NCBI GenBank assembly: GCA_964522405.1
Contig: CAZFTR010000004.1
Span: forward strand, 22,349-86,348
Length of the DNA: 64,000 nt
Reading direction: 5' to 3'
Origin: an uncultured Gammaproteobacteria bacterium
Lineage (GTDB): Bacteria; Patescibacteriota; Patescibacteriia; Magasanikbacterales; UBA922
The translations under genes and the position numbers were made by a program. Below the pieces are notes generated by a model that saw nothing but the letters and a program-made list of their open reading frames with translations, did no database searches and was not told the origin of the DNA. Each line of letters begins with the position of its first letter. Position 1 is the stretch's first letter. Positions 3,534 through 56,263 of this stretch are shown piece after piece.

Positions 3534-3554
3534 CGAACGACAAGGGGGAAGGAC

Positions 3555-3935
3555 GTGCATCGCGCTTTCAGACGTGAGCATTGCTCGGCCATATACCAGG
3601 GTGATATGGAAGTCGATCTCGGTCGTCTCACCCCGAGTGAGAGATTCGGCCTAGACGTCCTGTTGCGCCTGTTTCGTGGTCGGATCAAGATGAAGGATAC
3701 GGGCATGGGAAATTCAGCATTGGTCTTCCGCCTCTCGGAACTCCGCTGCAGAATGAACTCGAGAGGGCCGGATCTACAGGATCTGACCGTGGAGACAGGT
3801 CTGAACGGTCACATCACACTCTCGACCGGTGATCCGGAATCGGCTCATCGGATGCGCGTGGACTTCAGCGAACCGCCACCGGACGGCGATCATTCGCGCC
3901 ATCGGCGCGTGTTCCCGCCTGACTGGGCCGTGTGA
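3555..3935 (+). CDS. Hypothetical protein encoded in G+C-rich island A
   Basis: 126-aa ORF with GC3-rich codons (CGC, CTC, GAC) in an A+T-rich neighbourhood. An SD-like tract lies upstream, but only 2 nt from the GTG; the internal ATG at 3606 is an alternative start. No recognisable domain. Confidence 0.35.
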   Translation: MHRAFRREHCSAIYQGDMEVDLGRLTPSERFGLDVLLRLFRGRIKMKDTGMGNSALVFRLSELRCRMNSRGPDLQDLTVETGLNGHITLSTGDPESAHRMRVDFSEPPPDGDHSRHRRVFPPDWAV

Positions 3936-3972
3936 GTTACCCACGGTTCTAGTCCTTCGCTGTCCAAGCATC

Positions 3973-4005
3973 GCCCCTGGCGCTGGATTTATCCACGCCA
4001 GGGGT
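3973..4005 (+). terminator. G+C-rich hairpin closing island A
   Basis: CCCCTGGCG-ctggatttatcca-CGCCAGGGG, a perfect 9-bp stem, followed by ttcgccatttatat. Confidence 0.5.
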
Positions 4006-4058
4006 TCGCCATTTATATGGGGTATATAGAGCAACTATGGCACTACTACCAAATACCA

Positions 4059-7124: not shown

Positions 7125-7148
7125 TTTTTGTTCGTTCGTCAAAGGAAA

Positions 7149-7661
7149 ATGCTAGTGAACAGATCAGATCGCGGCTGGACTGCCGCCTTCACGGTCGGGA
7201 GCTTGCTCCTGATCGCGATGCTCGTTGTGGACTACACGGTTCATGACCTTAAAATGAGAGAGCTGCACCAGGCCGTCGTCACGGACTTCGACGAGTTGGT
7301 GCCGGGCATGTGCTACGGCATGGAGATCGAGAGCGGCAAGTTCCAGGTGGTCTGCATCCACCAGTCGCGGAACTGCCCGGACCCCAAGTCCGACGACTAC
7401 GGCGTGGTCAAGCCAAGCGAGTGCCGCCTCGAACGCCCCGAATGCATCGAGTCGGCCAAGGTCACCGAGTTCGGCGCCCTGCAGTACCCTCAGTGGGTGG
7501 TGGTTGGCGAGAGCTACGAGATCTCGGGAAGCCGCCACACCCTCGACCTCGACGACCAGGACTACTGCGTGTTCACGCCCCACAAGTGGCCTGAGCCGTC
7601 CGACGAGTGGGAGTGGCAGGACGTCATCGAGGACACCGGGGACTCCCCCGACGCGCAATAG
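7149..7661 (+). CDS. Hypothetical signal-anchored Cys-containing protein with acidic C-terminus (G+C-rich island B)
   Basis: AAAGGAAA SD at 7141-7148, then ATG 7149 or GTG 7155 (the ORF-track TTG at 7128 has no SD). Contains an N-terminal TM helix (WTAAFTVGSLLLIAMLVV) and six Cys, with GC3-rich codons. Confidence 0.45.
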   Translation: MLVNRSDRGWTAAFTVGSLLLIAMLVVDYTVHDLKMRELHQAVVTDFDELVPGMCYGMEIESGKFQVVCIHQSRNCPDPKSDDYGVVKPSECRLERPECIESAKVTEFGALQYPQWVVVGESYEISGSRHTLDLDDQDYCVFTPHKWPEPSDEWEWQDVIEDTGDSPDAQ

Positions 7662-7792
7662 CGCAATCCGGCATCCTGCCGGGGCAGCGCGAGATGTGCG
7701 AGATTTTGACGACGAACGACGCCGCCCATCCCGAACTGCTTGAGCATCTAAAATCTGGAAATTCAAGCGGAGGCGGGATGTGCCGCTTAATT

Positions 7793-8791: not shown

Positions 8792-10552
8792 TTAAGGAAT
8801 AAACCCACCTGCCTGCAAGTCCCAGAGCTTCTTGTAAAGCCCATTTTTGCGTTTTAAGAGTTGCTGATGCGAACCTTGTTCAACTATATCACCTTGATCA
8901 ATTAAAATGATTCTGTCCATTCTCATAATGGTTGAAAGTCGATGAGCAATTACAATAACTGTTTTATCTTTCATCAGCTTATTCAATGCATCCTGGATCA
9001 GCATCTCTGATTCTGAATCAAGACTAGATGTAGCTTCATCAAGAATAAGTATTGGAGAATTACTAAGTATTGCTCGAGCAATTGCTACTCTCTGACGCTC
9101 ACCACCAGATAATTTAACACCTCTTTCACCAACAAAGGTTTGGTACTTTTCTGGAAGAGAATCAATAAATTCATGACAATGCGCAGCTTTTGCAGCTTCT
9201 ATGACTTCTTCATCAGTGGCTTCTGGTTTTCCATATCGTATATTCTCCATCAAAGTTCTATGAAAGAGAATTGGGTCTTGTGGAACCATGCTAATTGCTC
9301 TATGAAGTGAATCCTGAGTGATTTTTCTAATATTTTGACCATCAATATTTACCTTACCTTTTGCTGGGTCAATTAATCTGAGTAGTAATTTAACAACAGT
9401 TGATTTTCCTGCCCCACTTGGACCGACTAATGCAATTCTCTCCCCTGCCTTAATTTTGAAATTAAGATTCTTGATAATTGATCTGGTTTGATGATAATTA
9501 AATCGCACTGATTCAAATTCTATCTTTCCTTTTTTAACTTCAAGTTCTTTGGCATTATAAGCATCTCGCACCTTGTGAGGAGTATCAAAAATTTCAGTCA
9601 TTTCTTCGGCATCAGCAAGTGCTTCATAGTATTTTCGGATAATTCTTCCAAAATTCCAGAGCTTCATAAATATTGCGATCAAATATGCTTGGATCAAAAC
9701 AAAATCACCAATTGTAATTATCCCCTGATTCCAGAGCTTAATTGCTATATAGAAAATGACAAACTCAAGAATAATCATCAGCAATGTCTGAACTGCTTCG
9801 AATCCTGTAGCAAGATCCCAACAAAATCTTCTTATTTTGCGTAATTCATCTGTAATTTTTTTGAATCTAAGACCTTCACGTTCATACCCAGCAAATAACT
9901 TGATAGTAGAATAATTTGTAATTGAATCTGCAAGAACACCAGTTGTTTTTGAATCCATCTCACTGCGTTGAACATCAAATTTTAACTTATACCTAGAGAA
10001 TAAAAAATTAGTAAAACAATAAATAAAAATCCAAACCAAAATAAATATTCCAAGAGCAGAATTTCTCCTCCACAGAATAATATTGATAAGACCTATTTCC
10101 ATGATGATCGGCAAAAGTTCCCAACTTATAATATCTGCAAGAGTTTCAAAGGCGCGATAAAATCTATTTACTTTCTTGACTAGTGAACCTACAAAATTTC
10201 CTTCAAAAAAACCAATAGCATGTTTGTGCATGTATGCAAAACAGGTATTTGGCAAATCAGCCATGATATGAGTCTGAAAATATGAGTTCAAAAAAGCTGC
10301 TCCACGCCAAAAAATCCAACCAATCAAATGGATAATAACTACTTTTATTAAAATTCCGATTAAGACATCTGAATTTGCTCCACTATTTAAATCATCAAAA
10401 AATTGTTTATAAAAAAGAGGCGCAATTACATTTGTAATAGAAGCTAGTATAATAAACAAGACAGTGAAAAAACCTGACTTTTTATACTTGAGCACATGTT
10501 GCCAATAAATTTTTACAGTAAGTTTTTTCCTATATTTCATAAAACTTGGCAC
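8792..10552 (-). CDS. ABC transporter, fused permease/ATP-binding exporter (MsbA-like)
   Basis: Six TM helices, then Walker A GPSGAGKST, the LSGGERQRVAIARAIL signature and a Walker B. Confidence 0.85.
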   Translation of the reverse strand: MPSFMKYRKKLTVKIYWQHVLKYKKSGFFTVLFIILASITNVIAPLFYKQFFDDLNSGANSDVLIGILIKVVIIHLIGWIFWRGAAFLNSYFQTHIMADLPNTCFAYMHKHAIGFFEGNFVGSLVKKVNRFYRAFETLADIISWELLPIIMEIGLINIILWRRNSALGIFILVWIFIYCFTNFLFSRYKLKFDVQRSEMDSKTTGVLADSITNYSTIKLFAGYEREGLRFKKITDELRKIRRFCWDLATGFEAVQTLLMIILEFVIFYIAIKLWNQGIITIGDFVLIQAYLIAIFMKLWNFGRIIRKYYEALADAEEMTEIFDTPHKVRDAYNAKELEVKKGKIEFESVRFNYHQTRSIIKNLNFKIKAGERIALVGPSGAGKSTVVKLLLRLIDPAKGKVNIDGQNIRKITQDSLHRAISMVPQDPILFHRTLMENIRYGKPEATDEEVIEAAKAAHCHEFIDSLPEKYQTFVGERGVKLSGGERQRVAIARAILSNSPILILDEATSSLDSESEMLIQDALNKLMKDKTVIVIAHRLSTIMRMDRIILIDQGDIVEQGSHQQLLKRKNGLYKKLWDLQAGGFIP

Positions 10553-10670
10553 GTTTAAACTTGAACAAAATACCCAGTTTAGGTGCTAGGTCTACTAATG
10601 AAGACGTAAAATTCGAAATTTTGTTACAAAATTAACAGAAATTACCAAATTATCCCATAAAATCTCAACC

Positions 10671-10696
10671 AAAAAACCGGCTTATGCCGGTTTTTT
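10671..10696. terminator. Bidirectional intrinsic terminator
   Basis: AAAAAACCGGC-ttat-GCCGGTTTTTT. Confidence 0.6.
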
Positions 10697-10706
10697 GGAG
10701 TCAATT

Positions 10707-10886
10707 CTATTCTGCTGGATCTACTGGAGTTTCTCCCCCACCTTCTGGCATTGGAGCTACTTGCTCTCCACCTGCTTGAGTAGACATTTCTCCGCTTCCA
10801 CATGAGCATGTGCTACAAGCTGAACATCCACCACACTCCATGCATGCTGGACCGCTACAACTTGCGCAAGTCTTTAATTCTTCCAT
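10707..10886 (-). CDS. Small Cys-rich (metallothionein-like) protein, not present in the supplied ORF track (59 aa)
   Basis: The reverse-complement translates to MEELKTCASCSGPACMECGGCSACSTCSCGSGEMSTQAGGEQVAPMPEGGGETPVDPAE, with 10 Cys in the first 30 residues. A terminator lies immediately downstream. Confidence 0.45.
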   Translation of the reverse strand: MEELKTCASCSGPACMECGGCSACSTCSCGSGEMSTQAGGEQVAPMPEGGGETPVDPAE

Positions 10887-10965
10887 AGAAAAATTAAGGT
10901 TAAAAATATGTAATAAAGTATAGATTAGAAAAAACCTTTCGTCAAATTTGGATAAATTTCCTTTG

Positions 10966-10999
10966 CTGCACCCGAATCGCCGAAGCGAGACGGGTGCAG
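10966..10999 (-). terminator. Hairpin at the 3' end of the island C gene
   Basis: CTGCACCCG-aatcgccgaagcgagac-GGGTGCAG, a 9-bp G+C-rich stem. Confidence 0.4.
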
Positions 11000-11048
11000 C
11001 GTGAATCAGTAAAAAATCCTGGTGAAAAACCCGGTAGGACCTCGAGTT

Positions 11049-11354
11049 CTAGATGAAGTCGTGCTTGCGACACTTGCGCACCATGTGCAGCGCGCCGTCG
11101 ATGCGCATTGCCGGAATGCCGAGCGCGTAACGCACAACCTTACAGCCGACTTCGCCCAACTGCTCGTAGGCGAGAGCGATCCTGCTCTCCTGACCAAAGA
11201 TCCACTTCACAGCCGAGCACTCGAGAGCAGTGACCCTCTCATTCGCCGTCCCGATGGCCATGATTCCGTCGAGCGTCAACTCTCCGATGACCACAGCGCA
11301 GTCTTGAACCACCAGCTCGCCCATGAACAGAGCACTTCCCAATACTTCTTTCAT
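11049..11354 (-). CDS. Hypothetical protein of G+C-rich island C (101 aa, begins MKEVLGSALFMGELVV...)
   Basis: ATG at 11354 is preceded by GGGGGG and by TTGACA-N16-TATTAT. The longer track start at 11369 lies upstream of the SD. GC3-rich codons. Confidence 0.45.
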   Translation of the reverse strand: MKEVLGSALFMGELVVQDCAVVIGELTLDGIMAIGTANERVTALECSAVKWIFGQESRIALAYEQLGEVGCKVVRYALGIPAMRIDGALHMVRKCRKHDFI

Positions 11355-11385
11355 TGGCCCCCCGACCAATTATTGATCCAGGGAA

Positions 11386-11413
11386 ATAATAGCTCATTTA
11401 TATTTATTGTCAA
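11386..11413 (-). promoter_or_regulatory. Consensus promoter of the island C gene (TTGACA-N16-TATTAT, read on the minus strand)
   Basis: -35 at 11408-11413 and -10 at 11386-11391 (reverse-complement). Confidence 0.45.
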
Positions 11414-11437
11414 CCCTGGCGTTCGCGAACGCCAGGG
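11414..11437. repeat. Perfect 24-bp palindrome CCCTGGCGTTCGCGAACGCCAGGG abutting the island C promoter
   Basis: It shares the CCCTGGCG/CGCCAGGG stem with the island A hairpin and the CGTTCGCG core with the island E palindrome. Confidence 0.6.
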
Positions 11438-11518
11438 TGAACCGAGCAGAAGACAGTACTGAGTCAAAATTAAAAAACTGCCCAAGTGGACAGTTTTTTA
11501 GAAGTAATTCTTCTTTAG

Positions 11519-12823
11519 CTAAATTGCTTCACCTAGGGGTTTGGGCTTTTCTCCTGTTTCTTTCATTACTCCCTTCTCAAACAAAATTGCACCAAGAACA
11601 GTCACAAGAATAACACCAAGAAGTGCAGCTGCTGCCATAGTTTCACTGAGTACATTGTTGGCAATTGCAACTGCTACGAAAACTAAACCAACTTCACCAC
11701 GAATTGACATTGCATAACCAACAAGTTTTCCTTCGTTGCGGTCCTTGAATAAATATTTAACAATATATTTTCCATAGAATCCAAGAACTGTAAATATAAT
11801 TGCATAAATCCAAGCTTTTGGAGACATAATTGCTTCACGGGTAAGCATGGTTCCAATACTTACCAGGAATCCACCAACAAAGATATGTATATATCCCTCG
11901 ATCTTTTCCCAAACTTCATGTTTGATCTCATTATCAACTTTTGAAAGTACCACACCAATACCAAAGGCACCAAGAACAGGCTCAAGACCAACCACAGCTG
12001 CAAGTGCTCCAGCAATAATCAAGGCACCAAAGAAAAATCTAGTATAAGGCCCTGTTGTAGTTTTTACGTAATGCTTATCAAGATATTTGGCAATCTTATC
12101 AGCAACACCCATACTCCACATTAGATAAGCTCCACCAAAGAAAGCAAGAACAGCAATAGCAAGCCAGATAAGACTCATAGCTTCTAGGTGACCTTGAGAT
12201 AATTTTGCAAGCACAGTTAGAACCAGCACACCAAGAATATCATCAATCACAGCAGCCCCAACAATTCTGTTTCCCATGTTTGTACTAAGTTTTCCAGCAG
12301 CTTTTAGAGCTTCTACTGAAAGACCAACTGATGTTGCTGTGAAAATACCACCCAAGAAAATAGCCGGAAGCCATTCCATACCAAGAGCATAATGTCCTAG
12401 AAGCGCAAAAGTAACCAATGGAATAAAGACACCACCAAAAGCAACCAGACTGGCAATCCCAATATTTTTCTTGAGAAGTTCCATGTCAAAATGAAGTCCA
12501 GCTTCAAATAAAATAAAAAGCACACCAGCTAGGCGAGCAATTTCAACTCCGTGAGCATATGGATCAAGAACACCCATAGCTGCAGGACCAGCAATAATAC
12601 CCATTACAATCTTACCTGCCATTGGTGCAATACCAAATACTTTGGCAAGTCTTCCACCAAAAGATGCAAAAACAGCAAGAAATGCAATATCAATCAAAAT
12701 CGGCATGATGGTATTGATCTCATGATGATGACTGTGCAACAAGGCCTCGCGCAAATAGTGCAGACCAATTGCGAATACCACCACTTCTATAGTTAGAAGT
12801 GCTAGTGTCTTCAATTTATTCAT
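11519..12823 (-). CDS. Cation:proton antiporter (CPA2 / Na+/H+ exchanger family)
   Basis: 434 aa with about 12 TM helices; architecture and motifs are Kef/NapA-like. Confidence 0.75.
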   Translation of the reverse strand: MNKLKTLALLTIEVVVFAIGLHYLREALLHSHHHEINTIMPILIDIAFLAVFASFGGRLAKVFGIAPMAGKIVMGIIAGPAAMGVLDPYAHGVEIARLAGVLFILFEAGLHFDMELLKKNIGIASLVAFGGVFIPLVTFALLGHYALGMEWLPAIFLGGIFTATSVGLSVEALKAAGKLSTNMGNRIVGAAVIDDILGVLVLTVLAKLSQGHLEAMSLIWLAIAVLAFFGGAYLMWSMGVADKIAKYLDKHYVKTTTGPYTRFFFGALIIAGALAAVVGLEPVLGAFGIGVVLSKVDNEIKHEVWEKIEGYIHIFVGGFLVSIGTMLTREAIMSPKAWIYAIIFTVLGFYGKYIVKYLFKDRNEGKLVGYAMSIRGEVGLVFVAVAIANNVLSETMAAAALLGVILVTVLGAILFEKGVMKETGEKPKPLGEAI

Positions 12824-13038
12824 AAATTTTTCCTAATTGTCATCCCGAGCGAAATGCTAGAGAGTCAAGAGATCTCCTTTTCAAAGAATATTTTCCTTAA
12901 AAGGGTGATTCCTCCACTCTATTCAAGATAACCTATAAATTATATTAAATTACGACTGCAATATTATACAGTTAAATAGCTTAAAAATCAATACAATTTG
13001 GGGATAAAGCCAAGTTACAAAATTGTGAAAAATGCTGA

Positions 13039-13067
13039 TTTACAAGTAAGTAGAAATATGCTAGGAT
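13039..13067 (+). promoter_or_regulatory. Candidate promoter of island D (TTTACA-N17-TAGGAT)
   Basis: Lies upstream of the GGGAGG SD at 13087-13092. Confidence 0.35.
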
Positions 13068-13102
13068 ATTTCAGTAATCTGGAACCGGGAGGAAAAAACC
13101 GG

Positions 13103-13849
13103 ATGTTTCTTTTGGAATTCACGAAAAAGCACCCCTACCTGGTAATCGCCAGTGTGGCTCTGACCACTCTGCTGATTGCTGCCATGGTGATGATTCAGCA
13201 GAGGATCGATACCAGCAAGGAGCGGATCGCGACTGCATGTCTCGAGAGAATCGCCAACCCCTGCACCTTCTACAAGGTCTCAGACTCGGGCTACACCTGT
13301 GAGAAGTGGCACGTCGCCGACGGCACTGATTGCAAACAGAGCGCCTGCATGACAGGCGACTGTGTCTGCAAGGACGGCAAGCCGACTTCCGACTCCTGGC
13401 GGGACTGCTCTTCGCCGAGCGATCCCTGTCGGGTCGACGTTTGTGTTCCTGACGACGCTGAAGAGCTGGGCTACAGATGCGTGCCCGGGGTGCATGAGGA
13501 CCGGAATCGCAAGATCTGGCTCGATCACAAGCCCGACTTCACCCCCTGCCTGGACGATGGCATCTGCATCGGACGTACCTGCATTGGCCCCGAAGGTCGC
13601 GTGCTGGCTCCACTACCGATCAAGTTCACCGAAACCAAGGCTCGGGACATGCCGACAGGCTTCGAGCTCAATCTCTGCGGGAACTGCCATCGCTACAGCT
13701 ACGACTGGAACTACAGCGGTCCTGTCACCTGTGGCAGCTGCCACCTGGAAGGCGCCGACATGCTCAACCGATCATCCGATAGACTGCTCTGGCATCTCGA
13801 GATCGAGGAAGGGCTGCCGGCCAAAGAGTTCCTGGGGGAGGTGATGTAA
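13103..13849 (+). CDS. Signal-anchored Cys-rich protein with two CxxCH motifs (putative dihaem c-type cytochrome), G+C-rich island D
   Basis: GGGAGG lies 10 nt before the ATG at 13103 (the ORF-track start at 12998 lies in A+T-rich DNA upstream of the SD). One TM helix, then 20+ Cys including CGNCH and CGSCH. GC3-rich codons. Confidence 0.4.
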   Translation: MFLLEFTKKHPYLVIASVALTTLLIAAMVMIQQRIDTSKERIATACLERIANPCTFYKVSDSGYTCEKWHVADGTDCKQSACMTGDCVCKDGKPTSDSWRDCSSPSDPCRVDVCVPDDAEELGYRCVPGVHEDRNRKIWLDHKPDFTPCLDDGICIGRTCIGPEGRVLAPLPIKFTETKARDMPTGFELNLCGNCHRYSYDWNYSGPVTCGSCHLEGADMLNRSSDRLLWHLEIEEGLPAKEFLGEVM

Positions 13850-13978
13850 TGCCGCAGACACGAGCACGAGGGCCACCAAGTAGAGGCGCCGGCACCAGCC
13901 CCGGCGGGAGCATGTCAACTGCTGCTCTGCACCGGCTGGCGACTCTCTTATTATTTTAATTTTAGAATGATGAGAAAG

Positions 13979-14007
13979 AAAAAACTCGCTTATTGCGAGT
14001 TTTTTTA
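13979..14007. terminator. Bidirectional intrinsic terminator (end of the atp operon)
   Basis: AAAAAACTCGC-ttat-TGCGAGTTTTTTT. Confidence 0.6.
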
Positions 14008-14046
14008 AACTATTAACTGTTGTTATCTGTAAACTATCAACAATTT

Positions 14047-14472: not shown

Positions 14473-14594
14473 TTTTTTATTAAATTGAACTTATTACTGA
14501 ATAGGTAGGTATCTCTCGACTGCGTTTTTCTTTCAGAAAACTTCGCTCGAGATGAGAACCAAGATGTGAAATTTTGATCAATGACCACTCACAG

Positions 14595-16773
<2,179 letters not shown>

Positions 16774-16776
16774 AGA

Positions 16777-17706
16777 CTATAATGCCGCTGCACCTGCTGC
16801 AATCTCCGCAATCTCCTGCGTGATTCCAGCCTGTCTAGCTTTGTTAAAACTTAAAGTTAATTCATCAATCAATTCTCCAGCATTTTCACTGGCATTTTTC
16901 ATTGCTACCATTCTTGCTGAATGTTCTGATGCTGTTGACTCTAGAACTGCCTGCAATAATTGTGATTCAACTAATCTTGGTAAAACATTTTCTATTATTA
17001 CTTTCACATTTGGTTCAAATTCATAGGCATCAATATCTTCTTCTACTTTTTCCTCTTTAGTATTTTTTGCATCTTCACCAATTTCATCTATCATCTTATC
17101 TATATCAACCGAAGAGACTGGCAAAAGTTGTCTAACTTCTGCAACCTGTTCTAAACTCGATTTAAAATTTGTATAAAAAACTACCACTTTATCGTATTTT
17201 TTTTCTTTAAATTCACTAATCATGATCTTTGTAATTGGCAGAATATTTTCCAGGCTTGGTTTTTCACCAATTTCGTCATACATTTGTACAAGATTGTAAC
17301 CGTACCTTTTGGCAAAAATTGCTGACTTCTTACCTACTCCTATCAGATCAATTTCAAGTTCAGCATCTGCATCATCAGCTAAAATTTCTTTATTTGATAA
17401 TGTTTGATGAGCTTTTTTGTATAAGTTTGCATTGAAACTTCCGCAAAGCCCTCTATTTGAACTAACCAAAATTGCTAGGACTTTTTTCACAGGCCTCTCC
17501 TCAAGAAGTTCAACTTTATCCATTTCAATTTTACTAAGACGATCAAGAAGGCCTTTTGCTGTAACTGCATATTCACGTGTTGCAAGTGTGGCATCAACTG
17601 CTCGACGCATCTTTGCAGCAGCAACCATCTCCATTGCTTTGGTGATTTTCTTGGTATTGGTCACGGACTTGATTCGTCCTTTAATTGCTTTTGTATTGAC
17701 TGCCAT
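16777..17706 (-). CDS. atpG: F1 ATP synthase gamma subunit
   Basis: 309 aa with conserved gamma N- and C-terminal helices (...ITQEIAEIAAGAAAL). Confidence 0.9.
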   Translation of the reverse strand: MAVNTKAIKGRIKSVTNTKKITKAMEMVAAAKMRRAVDATLATREYAVTAKGLLDRLSKIEMDKVELLEERPVKKVLAILVSSNRGLCGSFNANLYKKAHQTLSNKEILADDADAELEIDLIGVGKKSAIFAKRYGYNLVQMYDEIGEKPSLENILPITKIMISEFKEKKYDKVVVFYTNFKSSLEQVAEVRQLLPVSSVDIDKMIDEIGEDAKNTKEEKVEEDIDAYEFEPNVKVIIENVLPRLVESQLLQAVLESTASEHSARMVAMKNASENAGELIDELTLSFNKARQAGITQEIAEIAAGAAAL

Positions 17707-17751
17707 ACATTATTAGTGTGTAGTTTATAGTTACTAGTTTATAGATATAAT

Positions 17752-17777
17752 CTGTTAACTGTGATCTGTTAACTGTC
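17752..17777. repeat. Two direct copies of ATCTGTTAACTGT in the atpA-atpG spacer
   Basis: Same GTTAAC-core repeat family. Confidence 0.5.
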
Positions 17778-17779
17778 AA

Positions 17780-19270
17780 CTATTTCTTAAATTCTTCACA
17801 AGCACTCTTCAACTCTCCCTCAATCTCATCACTCCACTCTCCACCTGCAATTTTTTCTAGCAATGAAGATTTTGAATTAGACATGAATTCAACAAATTTT
17901 GCTTCTGTTTCCTTAATTGAACTGATTTCAATTCCATCAAAATACCCTTTTGAAGCTGCGTAAATTACAGCAACTTGATGTTCTACTGCCATTGGTGAAA
18001 ATTGTTTTTGTTTCAAAAGCTCTACCATTAATCTACCACTTTCAATTTGCTTTTTTGTTTCCGGGTCAAGATCACTTGAAAATTGCGCAAATGCTTCTAA
18101 TTCTCTAAACTGAGCAAGTGTTAATTTCATACTTCCGGCAACTTTCTTCATTGGCTTAATCTGAGCAGATCCACCTACACGTGAAACTGATAAACCCACA
18201 TTCAACGCAGGACGAATACCCTTGAAAAATAGATCTGTTTCAAGGAAAATCTGCCCATCTGTAATTGAAATTACATTTGTTGGAATATATGCTGACACAT
18301 CTCCAGCCTGTGTTTCAATAATTGGCAACGCTGTAATTGATCCTCCACCATGTTTGTCATTTAAGTTACATGCTCTTTCAAGTAAACGTGAATGAAGATA
18401 GAAAACATCTCCAGGATAGGCTTCACGACCTGGTGGACGACGAAGAAGGAGTGAAATTTCACGATATGCCCAAGCTTGCTTGGTAAGATCATCATAAACT
18501 ACAAGTACATCTTCACCTTTGTCTGCAAAGTATTCTGCAATTGTAACTCCGGCATATGGCGCAAGATAGGCCATGGCTGCAGGGTCAGAAGCACCTGCCA
18601 AAACTATAGTTGTGTATTCCATTGCTCCTGCTTCTTCAAGTTGAGATACTATACGAGCAATTTTTGATTCTTTTTGACCAACTGCAACATAAATACATTT
18701 ACAATTTTTTCCTTTTTGATTGATAATAGTGTCGATTGCAACTGCAGTTTTTCCAGTCTGTCTGTCACCAATAATAAGCTCACGTTGTCCACGCCCGATT
18801 GGGATAAGTGCATCAACTGCTTTGATTCCTGTTTGGAGTGGAGTGTCAACTGGTTGACGTGTCATAACTCCCGGAGCAACTCTCTCCATTGGATAAAATT
18901 CCTTTGTTTTTATGTGACCTTTTCCATCAATTGGTTTTCCAAGCGCATTTACCACTCTTCCGATAAGCTCATCTGCCACAGGAACTGAAAGAATTTTCCC
19001 AGTTCTCTTCACTGTATCACCTTCTTTGATGTGCTTGTACTCGTCAAGAATAATGGCACCAACTGTTTCCTCTTCTAAATTCAGAGCAACTCCCATACTT
19101 CCGCCTGGGAACTCAAGCATTTCCTGTGCCTGACACTTATCAAGTCCACTCATGCGAGCAATTCCATCTCCAACCTCAATTACTGCTCCAATTTCTTCAG
19201 TCTTAATCTCCTTTTTAAAAGCATCAATATTTTGTTTTAGTTGTGCTACTATTTGATCTGTGTGTGACAT
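17780..19270 (-). CDS. atpA: F1 ATP synthase alpha subunit
   Basis: Walker A GDRQTGKT; 496 aa. Confidence 0.95.
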
Positions 19271-19276
19271 ACTTTT

Positions 19277-19302
19277 TAGTTAATAGTTTATAGTTAACAG
19301 TT
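19277..19302. repeat. GTTAAC-core repeats (TAGTTAATAGTT / AGTTAACAGTT) in the atpH-atpA spacer
   Basis: Same repeat family. Confidence 0.45.
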
Positions 19303-19313
19303 TGTAGTTTTTA

Positions 19314-19703
19314 TTATTTAGTTAGTTTAGTATTTAAATTTGATAACTGTGTTTTTACACTAGCGTCATAAATAACATTTCCTTTTTTTACTTTTACTCC
19401 ACCAATCAGAGACTTATCCGTATCAAGCTCAAGCTCAAAATGCTCACTAAATTTTGTTGCAATTTGCTCTGCCATTCCTTTTGAAATCTTATGAGCGCTT
19501 GTGATTTTGATGGTTTCAATTCCTTCTTGTTCTTTTGTGTACTTAAGAAAATGCTCCACTATTATGTCCACTTTTTTCAATGAATTATTTTTCTTAAGAA
19601 GTTTGAAAAATTCAAGAACTGCAGAATCTAGATCTTTTCCTGAAAGCTCTTTGGTAATTCTATATAAAACTTTTGCGTATTGTCTTGGGAATAATTTCTG
19701 CAT
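19314..19703 (-). CDS. atpH: F1 ATP synthase delta (OSCP) subunit, short form
   Basis: Position between atpF and atpA, delta-like C-terminal region; 129 aa. Confidence 0.65.
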   Translation of the reverse strand: MQKLFPRQYAKVLYRITKELSGKDLDSAVLEFFKLLKKNNSLKKVDIIVEHFLKYTKEQEGIETIKITSAHKISKGMAEQIATKFSEHFELELDTDKSLIGGVKVKKGNVIYDASVKTQLSNLNTKLTK

Positions 19704-19706
19704 ATA

Positions 19707-20300
19707 TTATTTAGCAAGCCCTTTAATAATCTCATCAATAAGTTTTTCATCCTTTTTTGGGTCAATTTTTTCTGGTAGAATTTTCCCAAGTGCTAGTACA
19801 ACTAACTCTGCTGTTTCTTTTCGAAGATCGTCTCTCATTGATTCTTTGTCTTTTTCAATTTGACCACGTGCTTTTGTAACCAGTGACTCAATTTCTGTTT
19901 TTGTCTTATCTCTTAGCTTGTCTGCTTGTTCTTCTGCATCTTCGCGAGCTTTGGCCACTATTTCATTTGATTCTTTTTTTGCTTCTGCAAGTTTTTCATC
20001 AAATTTCTGCTCACTCATTTGCAGGTTTGATTCTACTGCTTTGGCATTGTCCAGACTTTCATCAATAATCTTTTTTCTTTCTTCTAATTGCTTTGTTAAT
20101 GGTTTTAAAATTAGAAACCAAACAATAAGTGCTACAACTGCAAAGTTAATAAGCTGAAATCCAAATAATTGACCGTTTAGTCCAAGTGAGGCTAGAAGAC
20201 TCTGCTCACCTGTTGCTGCAGTCTCATGACCAACTTCTCCATATGTATCTTCTACATGAATTTCCTCCACTTCAGTTGTTTTATGTGTATTTTGTGACAT
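19707..20300 (-). CDS. atpF: Fo ATP synthase b subunit
   Basis: Single TM helix followed by a long charged coiled-coil region; position in the operon. Confidence 0.75.
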   Translation of the reverse strand: MSQNTHKTTEVEEIHVEDTYGEVGHETAATGEQSLLASLGLNGQLFGFQLINFAVVALIVWFLILKPLTKQLEERKKIIDESLDNAKAVESNLQMSEQKFDEKLAEAKKESNEIVAKAREDAEEQADKLRDKTKTEIESLVTKARGQIEKDKESMRDDLRKETAELVVLALGKILPEKIDPKKDEKLIDEIIKGLAK

Positions 20301-24332: not shown

Positions 24333-24459
24333 ATTAATCCTTAAATGTAATCAAATTATACAGTAAATTAAAATTTAATGAAATTTTTGACAAAATAATT
24401 AATCTTAAATACTATAAGTTATAGAGACCAAGTCGGCACCCCCGGCAAGGAAAATAGCC

Positions 24460-24588
24460 GTGAGCAAATTCAGAGATAATCCCAAACTGTCGGACAAGCC
24501 TCCTGTGTTCACCATCGAGTGCAATCACTGCTTCGTCCGGATCATGATCTGGGCCAATAGGTGTTGGTACTGCGGCCGCGCTCGATGA
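24460..24588 (+). CDS. Small zinc-ribbon protein (42 aa) in G+C-rich island E
   Basis: AGGAAA lies 7 nt before the GTG. Product is MSKFRDNPKLSDKPPVFTIECNHCFVRIMIWANRCWYCGRAR, with CxxC...CxxC. The overlapping minus-strand track ORF 24412..24603 lacks an SD. Confidence 0.3.
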   Translation: MSKFRDNPKLSDKPPVFTIECNHCFVRIMIWANRCWYCGRAR

Positions 24589-24632
24589 GTACCTGTGAAC
24601 CAAGCAAGAACATCAACCGCTCACCGGCGACC

Positions 24633-24707
24633 AAGCTCGTTCGCGTCGCCAACAATATTTTAAATTCAAATTTTAAAATATTGTTGGAGGAATACGCGAA
24701 CGAGCTT
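24633..24707. repeat. 75-nt nested palindrome at the edge of island E
   Basis: A 13-bp G+C-rich outer stem (AAGCTCGTTCGCG / CGCGAACGAGCTT) encloses a 14-bp A+T-rich inner stem (AACAATATTTTAAA-ttcaaat-TTTAAAATATTGTT). Confidence 0.6.
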
Positions 24708-25296: not shown

Positions 25297-25373
25297 ATTA
25301 ATCTATTGCTTTAATATTTAAAATGTGATATTTTTAGCGCTGTAATCCAGACTCGAGACAGGAGAAAGCCATC

Positions 25374-25706
25374 ATGGCAAAAGGAGACAAGAATCGCGGT
25401 CTGCGGCGCCGACGGCGGCGGCAGGAGGCCAAGAAGCAACGTCAGCTGCGGCAGGCGATCGCCACCATGGAGGAGCGACGCGGCGAAGAGCCTCAGTGGA
25501 CCTGCGGTGCCAACATCGGTACCCATCGAGAGCCCAAGCCCTGCGGCACCAAGGTGCTGATGACGAAGGGCAGCTGCCCCAAAGGCCACACCTGGCCGAA
25601 GATGACGGGCGGCAAGGCTCGCGAGCAGGCCGGCGTGGATCACGGCCGCGGCCACGGCTACCGACCCTACACACCGCCCCGCGACGACTACGACTACCCC
25701 TGGTAG
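25374..25706 (+). CDS. Hypothetical highly basic protein with a Cys/His cluster (G+C-rich island F)
   Basis: AGGAGA lies 8 nt before the ATG. N-terminal RRRRRRQEAKKQRQLRQ, then C-x6-H...C...C-x3-H. GC3-rich codons. Confidence 0.4.
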   Translation: MAKGDKNRGLRRRRRRQEAKKQRQLRQAIATMEERRGEEPQWTCGANIGTHREPKPCGTKVLMTKGSCPKGHTWPKMTGGKAREQAGVDHGRGHGYRPYTPPRDDYDYPW

Positions 25707-25744
25707 GCAGAAGGAGGCTTCAGAACCTACGATCGCACCCCCAC

Positions 25745-25776
25745 CCCCGTGTCTGTTCTCGAGAAGACGCGGGGGC
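25745..25776 (+). terminator. G+C-rich hairpin closing island F
   Basis: CCCCCGTGTCT-gttctcgag-AAGACGCGGGGG (one mismatch), followed by cagacagacttttctt. Confidence 0.45.
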
Positions 25777-25818
25777 AGACAGACTTTTCTTAAATTTGAG
25801 TTTTAAAAAACTCTTTTT

Positions 25819-27374: not shown

Positions 27375-27600
27375 TGCATCAATTGATGTGGGCGATTGTC
27401 GGTTACTCCAGTTTTCATAATTGTTGGTTCTGCCAACTTCCGATCGGGTTGAAGCCTGGACCGTCCTGGAAGGATCCCGAAACAAGCTCCGTCGCTGTCA
27501 GGGGACAAAAACCGCAAGCTCCTCACGCTTGCCGACCATGAATTCAGAACATCTACGTCGGATCGCCGGTAGAGAGTAGGTTGCGTCCCCTGGCATCCAA
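27375..27600. other. G+C-rich ~225-bp element G between rsmI and metG with nested stems; candidate structured RNA, no convincing ORF
   Basis: Stems: CAGGGGAC (27499-27506) with GTCCCCTG (27586-27593), enclosing GCAAGC-tcctcac-GCTTGC and CCGAC...GTCGG; also GTTGG-ttctg-CCAAC. The only ORFs lack an SD. Confidence 0.3.
27505..27532 (-). terminator. Minus-strand intrinsic terminator inside element G (candidate rsmI terminator)
   Basis: On the minus strand: GCAAGC-gtgagga-GCTTGC followed by GGTTTTTG. Confidence 0.4.
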
Positions 27601-27602
27601 CT

Positions 27603-28271
27603 CTACTTGCCAACCACTACAACAAACTCGCCTTTTTCTTTAATTTTTAAATTACCGATCTCACTAATTTTTCCGCGATAAACTGTTTCAAATTTCTTGG
27701 TTAATTCTCGACAAATACAAATTTTTATTTCTGGATCAAGCACTTTTGATAAATTATCAAGTGTTTTTTTAATTCTATGACTTGACTCATATAGCGCAAC
27801 AGTATATTTCTGATTAGACAACTCTTCAAAATATTTATTTCTTGCTTTTTTGTGGGGTGGAAATCCCAAAAAAACAAACTTATCTGTTGGAAATCCTGAA
27901 ATACTCAAGGCTGTAGTCACTGCAGAAACTCCCGGAATAGGGATTATTTGCAAATCTTCAACATTATTTAACAGATCTTCAATTAATTTATTTCCCGGAT
28001 CGCTTATCCCCGGAGTTCCAGCATCAGTAACAAGAGCTAGATTCAAACCCTGATTTAATAATTCTGAAATCTCTTTTATTCTCTTAGTAGAACTATGCTG
28101 ATGATAAGTTTTTACCTTAGTATCTATCTGATAATGGTTTAAGAGCTTTCTAGTTACTCGAGTATCTTCACATAAAATAAAATCTACGCTTTTAAGAGTA
28201 GCAATGGCTCGAAGAGTGATATCTGCCAAATTACCAATTGGCGTAGAAACTATGTATAAAATGGGATTCAT
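27603..28271 (-). CDS. rsmI: 16S rRNA (cytidine1402-2'-O)-methyltransferase RsmI
   Basis: Tetrapyrrole-methylase fold and N-terminus LYIVSTPIGNLADITLRAIATLKSVDFILCEDTR. Confidence 0.85.
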   Translation of the reverse strand: MNPILYIVSTPIGNLADITLRAIATLKSVDFILCEDTRVTRKLLNHYQIDTKVKTYHQHSSTKRIKEISELLNQGLNLALVTDAGTPGISDPGNKLIEDLLNNVEDLQIIPIPGVSAVTTALSISGFPTDKFVFLGFPPHKKARNKYFEELSNQKYTVALYESSHRIKKTLDNLSKVLDPEIKICICRELTKKFETVYRGKISEIGNLKIKEKGEFVVVVGK

Positions 28272-38419: not shown

Positions 38420-38424
38420 TTGGC

Positions 38425-38634
38425 ATGCGGTCTATGAAGTACGCACTCCCGATTAAGTTCGGGGATCTGCCAATGTGGTCGCGGTTCCAGTTCAGCGGAA
38501 CCTCGCGCTGGATCAAGACTGGTCACAAGTCCGCTGCGACGCTGACACCGGCGCCTCGTAGCTCCACCTTCTCCAACTCCTGTGGCGCGCCGCGCCGAGT
38601 GGATAGGTGCACGACCGTCTTCCCCTGCATCTAG
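38425..38634 (+). CDS. Questionable small ORF (69 aa) in G+C-rich island H
   Basis: It follows the consensus promoter but has no SD, and the product is low-complexity and S/R/T-rich. The island may instead be noncoding. Confidence 0.2.
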   Translation: MRSMKYALPIKFGDLPMWSRFQFSGTSRWIKTGHKSAATLTPAPRSSTFSNSCGAPRRVDRCTTVFPCI

Positions 38635-38676
38635 GGACACCTGATCCGTCTCTCGAAGCATCAATGATCGCCGCTG

Positions 38677-38700
38677 CCGGGGGTTCTTCGGAACCCCTGG
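38677..38700. other. Very stable hairpin with a UUCG tetraloop at the distal edge of island H
   Basis: CCGGGGGTTC-ttcg-GAACCCCTGG, 10 bp with one G·U pair, and no flanking T-run. Confidence 0.5.
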
Positions 38701-38777
38701 CAAAACTCATAATTGAACTAATCTCTAGATAAAATCTAGAGATTTTTTATCACAATTTAGCTAAATTTGCAATAGAT

Positions 38778-49760: not shown

Positions 49761-49840
49761 CAGATATCAATGATCCGAAACTCTAATGTTTTCGCTGTGC
49801 ACAAAAATTGCTCATAACGAGAACCTTAGAGGAGAACCTG

Positions 49841-50059
49841 ATGGTTGTCACCATCATCCAAGTAGTAATGGTTGTTCTCATGTTTCTGGCCGGCCTCTGT
49901 CTGATCATTGATGGCGCGCTCCGGGTTTTCAAGCCCAGCCTCAGCCACAGGCAGATGATTCCTCGAGCCGACTACTGGAAGCAGCGCATGGCAGGACTGA
50001 TCGAGATGGCTGTTGGCTCTGCCCTGCTCGCCATCCTGCTGACCATTGCACTGGTCTGA
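49841..50059 (+). CDS. Small two-TM membrane protein (72 aa) in G+C-rich island I
   Basis: GAGGAG lies about 6 nt before the ATG at 49841 (the ORF-track start at 49808 lies upstream of the SD). Product is MVVTIIQVVMVVLMFLAGL...LLAILLTIALV. GC3-rich codons. G+C-rich hairpins GGCTGCG/CGCAGCC follow at 50080-50101. Confidence 0.45.
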   Translation: MVVTIIQVVMVVLMFLAGLCLIIDGALRVFKPSLSHRQMIPRADYWKQRMAGLIEMAVGSALLAILLTIALV

Positions 50060-50210
50060 AACATGAAACAACTGATTCGGCTGCGCCGCAGACGCAGCCT
50101 CGCTCATTCTGGGGCTTTCTCCCCACCAACCACAACAAGGAGGTGAGGACGAACTCTGCACTCGTCCCTCCGAATATTTTCAGTAGTTATAATGCAAATT
50201 GAGGAGTATT

Positions 50211-50255: not shown

Positions 50256-50981
50256 TTATTCAGCTAAAATAAAATTCAAATCAAGATTAAAGCTAATATC
50301 ATCCTTGATAGCCTTGTCACCCAACTCTTTAAATATTGAACCTGATTTAAAATTAATACCCCAACGAGTACGATCAATATCAAAATCAGCCTTAACATTG
50401 AAAACACCTCCCTCATCTATAGTCTTTGCCTGAAAACTGATTTCTTTAGTCTTATCAAGAATTGTTAAATTACCTTCTACTTCATAAAGTTCTAGCTCTA
50501 TCTGCTTAAGAAAGGTTAAGACAAATTTAGTCTCAGGAAAATTTTCTACATTAAAAAAATCTTCTGAGCGAATATGTTTTAAAAATAATTCACTTTCCTT
50601 ATCATCATCAATACTTTGCATATCTATTATAAACTCTCCAGAATCAAAAAATCCCTTTTCTTTCATAAGCAAACCACTCTTCAAATCAACACTACCAGTA
50701 TGCCCACCCCCCGCTACATGCGATGCTGACCAGTTTAATTGAGAATTAGTAGTATCCAAAGTATATTTTTGAGAAGGCATTATTTCCTGATTTTCTTCTT
50801 GTAGCTCTTCTTTTTCCTCAGCAGGCACTACTTCTTCTACTGCCACATCTTCATTTAACTGTTCTGTCTCAAGAGCAGGCACGACTTGCTCCACCGGCAC
50901 TTGTTCAACCCCTTTTGAACAACCCGCGCCAATCAATAAAAACAATACCAAAAATCCTCCTATTTTCAAATATTTTTGCAT
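50256..50981 (-). CDS. YceI-like lipoprotein, distal gene of the copper/redox operon
   Basis: Lipobox LIGAGCSK and a YceI-like core (TGSVDLKSG...ENFPETKFVLT). Confidence 0.6.
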   Translation of the reverse strand: MQKYLKIGGFLVLFLLIGAGCSKGVEQVPVEQVVPALETEQLNEDVAVEEVVPAEEKEELQEENQEIMPSQKYTLDTTNSQLNWSASHVAGGGHTGSVDLKSGLLMKEKGFFDSGEFIIDMQSIDDDKESELFLKHIRSEDFFNVENFPETKFVLTFLKQIELELYEVEGNLTILDKTKEISFQAKTIDEGGVFNVKADFDIDRTRWGINFKSGSIFKELGDKAIKDDISFNLDLNFILAE

Positions 50982-51064
50982 AGATAAAAATAATAATAAC
51001 TAATTAAGTTTACATTATTAAGAAATAATTTCAATTGTGTATAATTGAGAGCAAAATTATACTA

Positions 51065-53218: not shown

Positions 53219-53219
53219 A

Positions 53220-54557: not shown

Positions 54558-54605
54558 ATAAATATGAATTGTCTATTTACTAACTATATTGCTTATCCCA
54601 CTAAA

Positions 54606-56229: not shown

Positions 56230-56263
56230 ATTCTATTTATTAGTTATTAATTCTTAAATAAAT

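What the first reader, a model, noticed from the sequence alone, without database searches (positions are those of the whole stretch)
13039..13908. Island D: signal-anchored, Cys-rich protein with two CxxCH haem-binding motifs
The ORF 13103..13849 encodes one TM helix followed by a domain with more than 20 Cys, including CGNCH and CGSCH 16 residues apart. That is the hallmark of c-type cytochromes. The rest of the window shows no respiratory chain. Only a CcdA-like thiol transporter exists, fused inside the copper operon. A foreign G+C-rich cytochrome-like gene in a fermentative-looking backbone is unexpected. Alternatively the CxxCH pairs may be metal or disulfide sites.
Basis: partly seen in the sequence, partly recalled or inferred. 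Interest (0 to 1): 0.65.

Follow-up and report, generated by a model that had tools for sequence, protein, structure and literature searches.

The report
Foreign orphan gene with two haem-binding motifs
A small G+C-rich foreign gene inserted between two housekeeping genes of a tiny A+T-rich CPR bacterium (Candidatus Magasanikbacteria) encodes a membrane-anchored, disulfide-rich protein whose tail carries two cytochrome-c-type CxxCH motifs, but nothing shows that it is a working cytochrome in this host.

Summary
The ORF 13103..13849 (+) is real. It has one TM helix, 18 Cys (not >20), and CGNCH and CGSCH at residues 192 and 210. Its codon signature is coding and foreign: GC3 is 0.75 against 0.21-0.25 in the backbone. 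Three independent Logan contigs from two runs reproduce the island, including both junctions, at 100% identity. Relatives keep atpC and the antiporter gene adjacent; the spacer is 7-391 nt and A+T-rich in about 15 of them and holds unrelated inserts in about 8. Island D is therefore a horizontally acquired single-gene islet, one of nine in this window.

The protein is an orphan: 1.84 billion representatives gave only itself and one marginal hit. Residues 42-160 are two degenerate copies of a Myxococcota-type Cys-rich repeat, probably disulfide-bonded. Residues 161-248 contain no Cys except the two CxxCH motifs. Their spacing matches adjacent haem sites of multihaem cytochromes, but every profile match is below threshold and AlphaFold predicts no fold there.

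No Ccm/Ccs or haem genes occur in the window, and no WWD motif occurs in 715 kb of clade DNA. The best reading is a donor-derived dihaem-like module on a disulfide-rich stalk, probably not matured here. The cytochrome interpretation is partly supported. Interest is moderate.

The parts
13039..13067 (+). Promoter-like site (TTTACA, 17 nt spacer, TAGGAT, with TG extension) in the A+T-rich flank upstream of the ORF
   Evidence: Consensus scan. This is a prediction only; 2 sites were found against 1.2 expected in shuffles.
13088..13092 (+). Shine-Dalgarno GGAGG, 10 nt upstream of the ATG at 13103
   Evidence: Read directly from the sequence.
13103..13849 (+). Orphan ORF of 248 aa: membrane anchor, two Cys-rich modules and a C-terminal di-CxxCH segment
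   Evidence: GC3 0.75; longer than any ORF in 2000 shuffles. Gene callers in public assemblies started it at 13058 (263 aa), 12998 (283 aa) or 13103 (248 aa).
13136..13195 (+). Single transmembrane anchor (residues 12-31); no plausible signal-peptidase site close to it
   Evidence: Kyte-Doolittle maximum of 2.64 at residues 13-31. AF2 helix 11-48 at pLDDT 79-92.
13238..13408 (+). Cys-rich module 1 (residues 46-102, 8 Cys)
   Evidence: Aligns with the repeats of P0002 with cysteines in register. AF2 with the alignment gives pLDDT 81-92.
13427..13582 (+). Cys-rich module 2 (residues 109-160, 6 Cys), a degenerate copy with a 17-residue insertion
   Evidence: BLASTP alignment with P0002. AF2 gives pLDDT 68-79 for its end.
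13583..13846 (+). C-terminal segment (residues 161-248) holding CGNCH (nt 13676-13690) and CGSCH (nt 13730-13744) and no other Cys
   Evidence: Sub-threshold matches to Cytochrome_C7 and TmcA.
13849..13959 (+). 36-codon ORF whose ATG overlaps the stop codon (ATGTAATG) and which runs out of the island into A+T-rich DNA; possibly the cut-off 5' end of the next gene of the donor operon
   Evidence: Translation. This is an inference and was not tested further.
13878..13950 (+). Long imperfect G+C-rich hairpin at the 3' edge of the island, followed by a T-rich tract
   Evidence: RNAfold gives -30.6 kcal/mol for 13878-13967.
13979..14005 (.). Backbone bidirectional terminator hairpin (AAAAAACTCGC / GCGAGTTTTTT) shared with atpC
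   Evidence: repeat I4.
13129..13947 (.). Extent of the G+C-rich island D (61% G+C). The true 5' edge may be near 13080, because the 5' UTR and first 9 codons are A+T-rich.
   Evidence: Two-state Viterbi segmentation.

Best explanation
Island D is a recently acquired foreign single-gene islet. It was inserted into the normally short spacer between atpC and a Na+/H+ antiporter gene of a Candidatus Magasanikbacteria (Patescibacteria/CPR) genome.

The gene encodes a protein held in the membrane by one N-terminal helix. Its extracytoplasmic part is a stalk of two degenerate, disulfide-bonded Cys-rich repeats of the kind found in extracellular proteins of Myxococcota and 'Deltaproteobacteria'. After the stalk comes an 88-residue tail with two CxxCH motifs, spaced like adjacent haem sites of small multihaem c-type cytochromes.

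In the G+C-rich donor the tail most likely bound two covalent haems. In the present host, which shows no haem synthesis or cytochrome c maturation genes, it is probably made as an apoprotein if at all. It would then act at most as a disulfide-rich surface protein, not as part of a respiratory chain.

Shown: the gene is real and coding, it is foreign, it is an insertion, it is an orphan, and it has this domain layout. Inferred: outside orientation, disulfide bonding, haem binding in the donor, and lack of maturation here.
For: Coding and foreign: GC1/2/3 is 0.55/0.46/0.75 against backbone GC3 of 0.21-0.25, and the ORF is longer than in all 2000 shuffles. There is no excess RNA structure (z = -0.5 and -0.95).

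Real insertion: contigs from runs SRR31802802 and SRR8146441 are 100% identical to the window across both junctions.

Slot: atpC-antiporter synteny is conserved. The spacer is 7-391 nt and A+T-rich in about 15 relatives, and 726-1756 nt with unrelated genes of GC3 0.35-0.86 in about 8.

Orphan: the only matches are itself and P0002 (E 3.2e-4) among 1.84 billion representatives. There is nothing in phage, plasmid or viral collections.

Stalk: BLASTP against P0002 gives 35% identity over 120 residues with 11-12 of 14 Cys in register. P0002's family carries Dicty_CTDC and DUF7107 and is annotated from Myxococcota/Deltaproteobacteria MAGs, some as MYXO-CTERM proteins. AF2 with that alignment gives pLDDT 81-92 for module 1.

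Tail: the only Cys are in the two CxxCH motifs, and 0 of 200,000 shuffles reproduce this. The best PDB sequence matches are multihaem cytochromes with both motifs aligned: 4qo5, 1m1p, 1duw, HAO and c3. Pfam Cytochrome_C7 scores E 0.0084.

Host: there is no Ccm/Ccs/ResBC or haem gene in the window. No WWD motif and no other ORF with two or more CxxCH occur in 715 kb of window plus clade loci. Patescibacteria almost universally lack electron transport chains (PMC7507113).
Against: No cytochrome match reaches significance. AF2 predicts no fold for residues 171-248 (pLDDT below 40). Foldseek found nothing at E below 0.7, and no cytochrome.

There is no His between the two motifs, where small multihaem cytochromes usually place a distal ligand. 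The candidates (H231, H142, H131, M183, M220) are unverified.

The positive-inside rule does not decide membrane orientation, since both flanks have net charge +1.

Only 64 kb of the genome was available, so a maturation system elsewhere is not excluded. One Parcubacterium with multihaem cytochromes has been described (PMC5220378).

The island is identical in two sequencing projects. It is therefore stably kept, which fits a useful gene as well as a neutral passenger.
Confidence: 0.55

Rival explanations
1. It is a working surface-anchored dihaem c-type cytochrome in this CPR bacterium. Haem would be scavenged from a host or the environment and attached by a System II-type machinery encoded outside the window, with the CcdA-like DsbD_2 protein and thioredoxin-like protein supplying reductant. 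It would transfer electrons at the cell surface.
For: Two CxxCH motifs lie in an otherwise Cys-free segment of a probably exported protein. Their spacing matches real haem pairs. DsbD_2 and thioredoxin-like genes are present in the window. Multihaem cytochromes have been reported once in a Parcubacterium (PMC5220378). The island is kept unchanged in two sequencing projects.
Against: No CcsA/ResC/CcmC/CcmF-type WWD motif and no other CxxCH-rich ORF occur in 715 kb of window plus clade DNA. The DsbD_2 protein is fused to HMA and cupredoxin domains inside a copper cluster, so it points to copper handling and not to cytochrome maturation. There is no quinone or redox partner in the window. Patescibacteria generally lack electron transport chains (PMC7507113). 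All cytochrome profile matches are below threshold.
Confidence: 0.12
2. The CxxCH pair is not a haem site. The four cysteines (CxxC, 14 residues, CxxC) form a zinc-ribbon or rubredoxin-like metal knuckle, or two more disulfides. The whole ectodomain is then a non-haem Cys-rich surface or adhesion module.
For: The spacing CxxC-x14-CxxC fits zinc knuckles (established knowledge of the motif; not tested here). The rest of the ectodomain is a disulfide-rich repeat. The weak Foldseek hits are all disulfide-rich extracellular modules and none is a cytochrome. The host has no visible haem machinery.
Against: Both CxxC are followed by His, although only 7 of the 248 residues are His. Two CxxCH arise in 0 of 200,000 shuffles of the segment. 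Zinc ribbons are unusual in extracytoplasmic domains. CxxCH is rare in the Cys-rich repeat family (3 of 119). The top sequence matches are cytochromes.
Confidence: 0.22
3. It is neutral passenger DNA. A fragment of a donor operon was captured at this spot, and its ORF is intact only because it arrived recently. It is not expressed and not useful.
For: GC3 shows no drift toward the backbone value. There are no homologues, so no sign of purifying selection can be measured. A possible cut-off start of a second donor gene lies at the right edge. The window holds eight other orphan islets.
Against: The gene has a good Shine-Dalgarno sequence, a promoter-like site and a terminal hairpin. The ORF is complete from membrane anchor to stop. 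The island is identical in two sequencing projects.
Confidence: 0.1
4. It is not a gene or not really there. It would be a chance ORF in G+C-rich non-coding or structured-RNA DNA, or a chimeric assembly.
For: G+C-rich DNA has few stop codons. Rfam and tRNA scans cannot exclude unknown RNAs.
Against: The ORF exceeds all 2000 shuffles and has a codon-position signature. The fold z-scores are -0.5 and -0.95. Both junctions are reproduced at 100% identity in independent assemblies, and the backbone synteny is restored on both sides.
Confidence: 0.01

Closest known systems
Small multihaem c-type cytochromes (c7/c3 class, Pfam PF14522 Cytochrome_C7; Shewanella small tetrahaem cytochrome 1m1p; haem pairs of the octahaem/HAO family 4qo5, 4fas)
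   Same: Two CxxCH motifs lie 18 residues apart in a segment with no other Cys. Both align with adjacent haem sites, for example 4qo5 'CTACHpRHSFDIEIArSPYTCGQCHLD' against 'CGNCH.RYSYDWNYS.GPVTCGSCHLE'. The segment is probably exported.
   Different: No match is significant. There is no His between the motifs. The protein has only two motifs, on a large disulfide-rich stalk. No fold is predicted. The host shows no maturation system.
Cys-rich repeat proteins of Myxococcota and 'Deltaproteobacteria' (Pfam PF00526 Dicty_CTDC, PF23416 DUF7107; some named MYXO-CTERM proteins by their sources)
   Same: Residues 42-160 align with two repeats of P0002 with 11-12 of 14 Cys in register. The module is modelled confidently when these proteins serve as the alignment. 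The G+C-rich composition fits such donors.
   Different: There is no Pfam hit to either family. The profile comparison gives probability 3%. Only P0002 of 120 family proteins is detectable by phmmer. The repeats here are degenerate, with lost Cys and a 17-residue insertion. The family does not carry a di-CxxCH tail.
Phage 'morons' and bacterial genomic islets (single foreign transcription units inserted between conserved genes; comparison from established knowledge, not tested against a database)
   Same: It is one small gene with its own ribosome-binding site and terminal hairpin. Its composition is sharply different from the neighbours. It sits between conserved genes at a variable slot and has no integrase, inverted repeats or target duplication.
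   Different: It lies in a cellular CPR chromosome, not a phage. Nine such islets occur in 64 kb, all orphans. The capture mechanism is unknown.
Multihaem cytochromes of the 'Parcunitrobacteria' genome (PMC5220378)
   Same: Both are c-type cytochrome candidates in a CPR bacterium.
   Different: Those are recognisable family members (HAO, NapC/NrfH) inside a respiratory gene cluster. Here there is a lone orphan gene with no partners.

Membership tests
c-type cytochrome | At least one CxxCH haem-attachment motif | tested here: met
   CGNCH at residue 192 and CGSCH at residue 210. This is non-random: 0.035% of whole-protein shuffles and 0 of 200,000 tail shuffles.
c-type cytochrome | The motif-bearing domain is exported to the extracytoplasmic side | tested here: inconclusive
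   There is one TM anchor. The flank charges are +1 and +1, so orientation is undecided. An outside location is inferred from the 14 Cys of the repeat domain.
c-type cytochrome | Significant match to a cytochrome c profile or fold | tested here: not met
   Cytochrome_C7 scores 16.4 bits against a cut-off of 24.8. TmcA scores 13.1 against 114. PDB sequence matches have E of 0.47 or more. AF2 pLDDT is below 40. Foldseek returns no cytochrome.
c-type cytochrome | Distal axial ligands (His or Met) available for each haem | tested here: inconclusive
   There is no His between the motifs. Candidates are H231, H142, H131, M183 and M220, and no structure is available to test them.
c-type cytochrome | A maturation system (Ccm, or CcsBA/ResBC with CcdA and ResA) and a haem supply in the same genome | tested here: not met
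   None was found in the 64-kb window. No WWD motif occurs in 715 kb of window plus clade loci. Only a DsbD_2 fusion and a thioredoxin-like protein are present. The rest of the genome could not be searched.
c-type cytochrome | Covalently bound haem | not testable with these tools
   This needs haem staining, pyridine haemochrome or mass spectrometry.
Dicty_CTDC / DUF7107 Cys-rich repeat proteins | Match to the Pfam models above the gathering score | tested here: not met
   Neither PF00526 nor PF23416 appears at E up to 10.
Dicty_CTDC / DUF7107 Cys-rich repeat proteins | Sequence similarity to family members with cysteines in register | tested here: inconclusive
   P0002 scores E 3.2e-4 library-wide, with 35% identity and Cys in register. 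However, hhalign against the family profile gives probability 3%, and no other member is detected.
Horizontally acquired genomic islet | Composition and codon usage unlike the host | tested here: met
   The island has 61% G+C against 36%, and GC3 0.75 against 0.21-0.25.
Horizontally acquired genomic islet | Absent from the same site in relatives | tested here: met
   The slot is empty in about 15 relatives and holds different content in about 8. There is no tblastn match to the gene in any locus.
Horizontally acquired genomic islet | Identifiable donor or mobility functions | tested here: not met
   There is no homologue in any collection. There is no integrase, terminal inverted repeat or target duplication.

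The most novel reading that the evidence does not exclude
Island D is one of a class of G+C-rich, orphan, single-gene transcription-unit cassettes that Magasanikbacteria capture into intergenic spacers by a mechanism not yet described. On this reading, the cassette gives the CPR cell a surface-anchored dihaem cytochrome that is loaded with scavenged haem and exchanges electrons with a partner organism.
Probability: 0.06. Interest if true: 0.8.

Novelty: new variant of a known kind. Interest (0 to 1): 0.4.

Why it matters
CPR bacteria are thought to have lacked electron transport chains from the start. A functional exported cytochrome c acquired by transfer would be a rare exception and a possible route for redox exchange with a host.

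The more solid point is the context. A roughly 1-Mb-class streamlined genome carries nine sharply bounded G+C-rich orphan islets in 64 kb. Each holds at most one small gene (no convincing ORF was found in island G), and some sit at slots that vary among relatives. This raises two questions: where such genes come from, and how a reduced symbiont captures and keeps them. Island D is the largest and best-defined example, and it is directly testable by recombinant expression.

Tried and rejected
- Single-sequence AF2 gave mean pLDDT 44.5, so it was unusable apart from the TM helix.
- AF2 with a 34-row alignment resolved only the Cys-rich modules.
- Foldseek against the PDB gave nothing at E below 0.7. 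The afdb50 library was not available.
- A PDB sequence search with the full protein gave no hit.
- The word-index search and the exhaustive HMMER search gave no informative homologues.
- The phage, plasmid and IMG/VR collections gave no match.
- Comparing the islands with each other and with relatives' islands showed no shared sequence. No terminal inverted repeats or target-site duplications were found. A common mobile element is therefore rejected.
- The structured-RNA reading of island D is rejected: z is -0.5 and -0.95, and there are no Rfam matches.
- The HNH-endonuclease reading of CxxC...CxxCH is rejected on spacing (14 residues against roughly 30 or more) and on the probable exported context. 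This is reasoning from established knowledge, not a test.
- Lipoprotein and cleavable signal peptide readings are rejected. The ATA|C at residues 43-46 lies 12 residues past the hydrophobic core.
- Chimeric assembly is rejected.
- An exact look-up of AtpC and of the 283-aa form found nothing on record.
- Literature searches for the run accessions and for G+C-rich islands in Patescibacteria found nothing.

Full report
**1. The observation**

The ORF at 13103..13849 (+) exists and encodes 248 aa. Some details of the finding need correction.
- It has 18 cysteines, not more than 20.
- CGNCH starts at residue 192 and CGSCH at residue 210. That is 18 residues start to start, with 13 residues between the motifs.
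- One hydrophobic anchor is present. The Kyte-Doolittle maximum is at residues 13-31, and AlphaFold2 models helix 11-48 at pLDDT 79-92.
- A GGAGG lies 10 nt upstream of the ATG, and a promoter-like site lies at 13039-13067.

The region is a sharply bounded G+C-rich island: 13129-13947, at 61% G+C in a window of 36%.

The ORF is a real gene.
- Its stop-free run of 269 codons exceeds all 2000 shuffles of the island.
- G+C by codon position is 0.55/0.46/0.75. Backbone genes have GC3 of 0.21-0.25.
- The island has no excess RNA structure (z = -0.5 and -0.95) and no Rfam match.
- Two CxxCH motifs arise in 0.035% of shuffles of the protein and in none of 200,000 shuffles of the C-terminal 88 residues.

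**2. The insertion is real**

Public Logan assemblies contain identical sequence.
- L001 (run SRR31802802) equals window 12361-13861.
- L058 (run SRR8146441) equals window 12921-14002, so it spans the whole island and both junctions.
- L056 (SRR8146441) equals 10120-12943 and verifies the neighbouring island C. L057 (SRR8146440) equals 14526-19998.

A chimeric assembly is excluded. The island is kept unchanged in two sequencing projects.

**3. Host and context**

The backbone is a Candidatus Magasanikbacteria (Patescibacteria/CPR) genome. The closest genomes and metagenome contigs share 79-83% amino-acid identity on the antiporter.

The window encodes housekeeping functions: tRNA synthetases, AddA-type helicase, PriA, Def, Fmt, Mur ligase and an F-type ATP synthase operon. 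It also holds a copper and thiol-redox cluster with CopA, an HMA-DsbD_2-cupredoxin fusion, a thioredoxin-like protein, DUF411, DUF302 and YceI.

There is no respiratory complex, no haem synthesis gene and no Ccm or CcsBA/ResBC gene. In 715 kb of window plus clade loci, no ORF of 80 or more codons carries a WWD-type haem-handling motif, and none other than this gene has two CxxCH motifs.

Patescibacteria almost universally lack electron transport chains (PMC7507113). One Parcubacterium with recognisable multihaem cytochromes has been described (PMC5220378).

**4. The site is a variable slot**

In the clade, atpC is followed directly by the antiporter gene.
- In about 15 relatives the spacer is 7-391 nt and A+T-rich.
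- In about 8 relatives it is 726-1756 nt and carries unrelated genes, with GC3 from about 0.35 up to 0.86.
- No locus has any similarity to island D at the protein or DNA level.
- There are no terminal inverted repeats, no target duplication and no mobility gene.

Just past the stop codon, an ATG overlapping it (ATGTAATG) opens a 36-codon frame that runs out of the island. This may be the cut-off start of the next gene of a donor operon. That is an inference.

**5. Island D is one of nine**

Two-state segmentation finds nine islands of 56-66% G+C, each 207-819 nt long, all between backbone genes.
- Seven hold a plausible small ORF on the + strand, which is antisense to their neighbours. Island C's best ORF is on the - strand.
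- GC3 reaches 0.87 (island B) and 0.81 (island F).
- Five islands end in strong hairpins.
- None of the ORFs has a Pfam hit. A concatenation of six of them found no relative in 5.8 billion clusters.
- The islands share no sequence with each other.

Close relatives have similar islets at lower density.

**6. The protein**

It is an orphan. The word-index search found only itself. The exhaustive HMMER search of 1.84 billion representatives found itself plus P0002 at E 3.2e-4.

P0002 is a 351-aa protein from an environmental record (AAFX01), made of tandem Cys-rich repeats. Its family of 139 hits carries Pfam Dicty_CTDC and DUF7107. Where sources name the organism, it comes from Myxococcota or 'Deltaproteobacteria' MAGs, and several members are named MYXO-CTERM proteins.

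Residues 42-160 of the island D protein align with two P0002 repeats at 35% identity, with 11-12 of 14 cysteines in register. Module 1 has 8 Cys and module 2 has 6, so both counts are even. With P0002 and its relatives as the alignment, AF2 models residues 42-101 at pLDDT 81-92 and the end of module 2 at 68-79.

Membership in that family is not established.
- There is no Pfam hit.
- The profile comparison gives probability 3%.
- Only P0002 among 120 family proteins is detectable.

So the stalk resembles this disulfide-rich extracellular repeat, but it cannot be called a member.

**7. The CxxCH segment**

Residues 161-248 contain only four cysteines, all in the two motifs. CxxCH is not a feature of the repeat family, where it occurs in 3 of 119 members.

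The only profile hits are cytochromes, all below threshold: Cytochrome_C7 at E 0.0084 (16.4 bits against a cut-off of 24.8) and TmcA at E 0.066.

Against PDB sequences the segment gives nine matches at E 0.47-2.7. Eight of them are multihaem cytochromes: octahaem 4qo5, small tetrahaem 1m1p, nonahaem 1duw, hydroxylamine oxidoreductase, c3 and 6hr0. In the printed alignments both motifs align with adjacent haem sites at nearly the same spacing. This shows that the spacing is that of a real haem pair. It does not show homology.

There is no His between the motifs. Possible distal ligands are H231, H142, H131, M183 and M220. AF2 gives no fold for this segment (pLDDT below 40). Foldseek gives nothing significant and no cytochrome.

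**8. Interpretation**

Firmly supported: a recently acquired, compositionally foreign, orphan single-gene islet that encodes a membrane-anchored protein with a disulfide-rich stalk.

Most likely (about 0.5): the tail derives from a small dihaem c-type module of a G+C-rich donor, possibly related to Myxococcota.

Unlikely (about 0.1-0.15): it is matured to a holocytochrome in this host.

A non-haem metal or disulfide role for the four cysteines remains a serious rival (about 0.2). Neutral passenger status is also possible.

Its alternative is right for the 14 N-terminal cysteines but does not explain the two CxxCH motifs.

**9. Novelty and interest**

The building blocks are known: HGT islet, Cys-rich repeat and CxxCH. 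The architecture and the orphan status are new, so I rate it a new variant of a known kind.

Interest is moderate (0.4). A working cytochrome c in a Magasanikbacterium would be surprising but is not supported. The dense set of G+C-rich orphan islets in a streamlined CPR genome is the more intriguing observation, and it deserves a genome-wide study.

Noticed in passing
window 3534-4010, 7170-7786, 10965-11367, 24424-24650, 25337-25784, 27426-27632, 38422-38701, 49886-50172: Eight further sharply bounded G+C-rich islands (56-66% G+C) lie between backbone genes. Most carry one small orphan ORF with its own SD: A 3555-3935 (+); B 7128-7661 (+), TM-anchored, GC3 0.87; C 11049-11369 (-); E 24460-24588 (+), a 42-aa CxxC...CxxC peptide; F 25374-25706 (+), GC3 0.81; H 38425-38634 (+); I 49808-50059 (+), two TM helices. 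There are no Pfam hits, no homologues and no shared sequence. A, B, D, F and H end in strong hairpins. A, B, C and H have fold z-scores of -2.5 to -3.6 on the + strand.
   Followed up: partly
window 12824-14046, compared with loci L002-L039: The spacer between atpC and the antiporter gene is a variable slot across Magasanikbacteria. It is empty (7-391 nt) in about 15 relatives. In about 8 it holds unrelated genes, with GC3 ranging from host-like to 0.86 (for example L007 3701-4273 and L009 9305-9793).
   Followed up: yes
window 10707-10886 (-); L010 1686-1850: A 59-aa Cys-rich, Ala/Gly/Pro-rich peptide (MEELKTCASCSGPACMECGGCSACSTCSCGSG...) lies between the antiporter gene and an ABC exporter (8792-10552, -). 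A similar peptide (MDGQACPGCGNAPCTCG...) sits at the same place in relative L010. This suggests a conserved small Cys-rich peptide next to a transporter, possibly metallothionein-like or a modified-peptide precursor.
   Followed up: no
window 16000-16773 (-): A 257-aa ORF with no significant Pfam match lies inside the ATP synthase operon, between the beta (14619-15998) and gamma (16777-17706) subunit genes. It is also called as a gene in the independent contig L057.
   Followed up: no
window 50256-59902 (-): A copper and thiol-redox cluster is present: YceI-like, CopA P-type ATPase (51065-53218), an HMA-DsbD_2-cupredoxin triple fusion (53220-54557), DUF302, a thioredoxin-like membrane protein (55055-55933), four ORFs without Pfam hits, and a glutaredoxin-like/DUF411 protein (59435-59902).
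   Followed up: partly
window 12921-12943 and 14002: Logan contigs of run SRR8146441 break at 12921-12943, where L056 and L058 overlap by 23 nt, and at 14002, inside the palindromic terminator. The first break, about 150 nt left of the island, could reflect a second allele in the population, such as one without the island, or only an assembler limit.
   Followed up: no
L007 about 3660-3700 (- strand ORF) and L025 6304-6426: Translated 'PACRQAGN' strings mark a G+C-rich palindrome (GCCTGCCGGCAGGC-like) that recurs in CPR loci near island ends. It may be a common terminator or repeat element.
   Followed up: no
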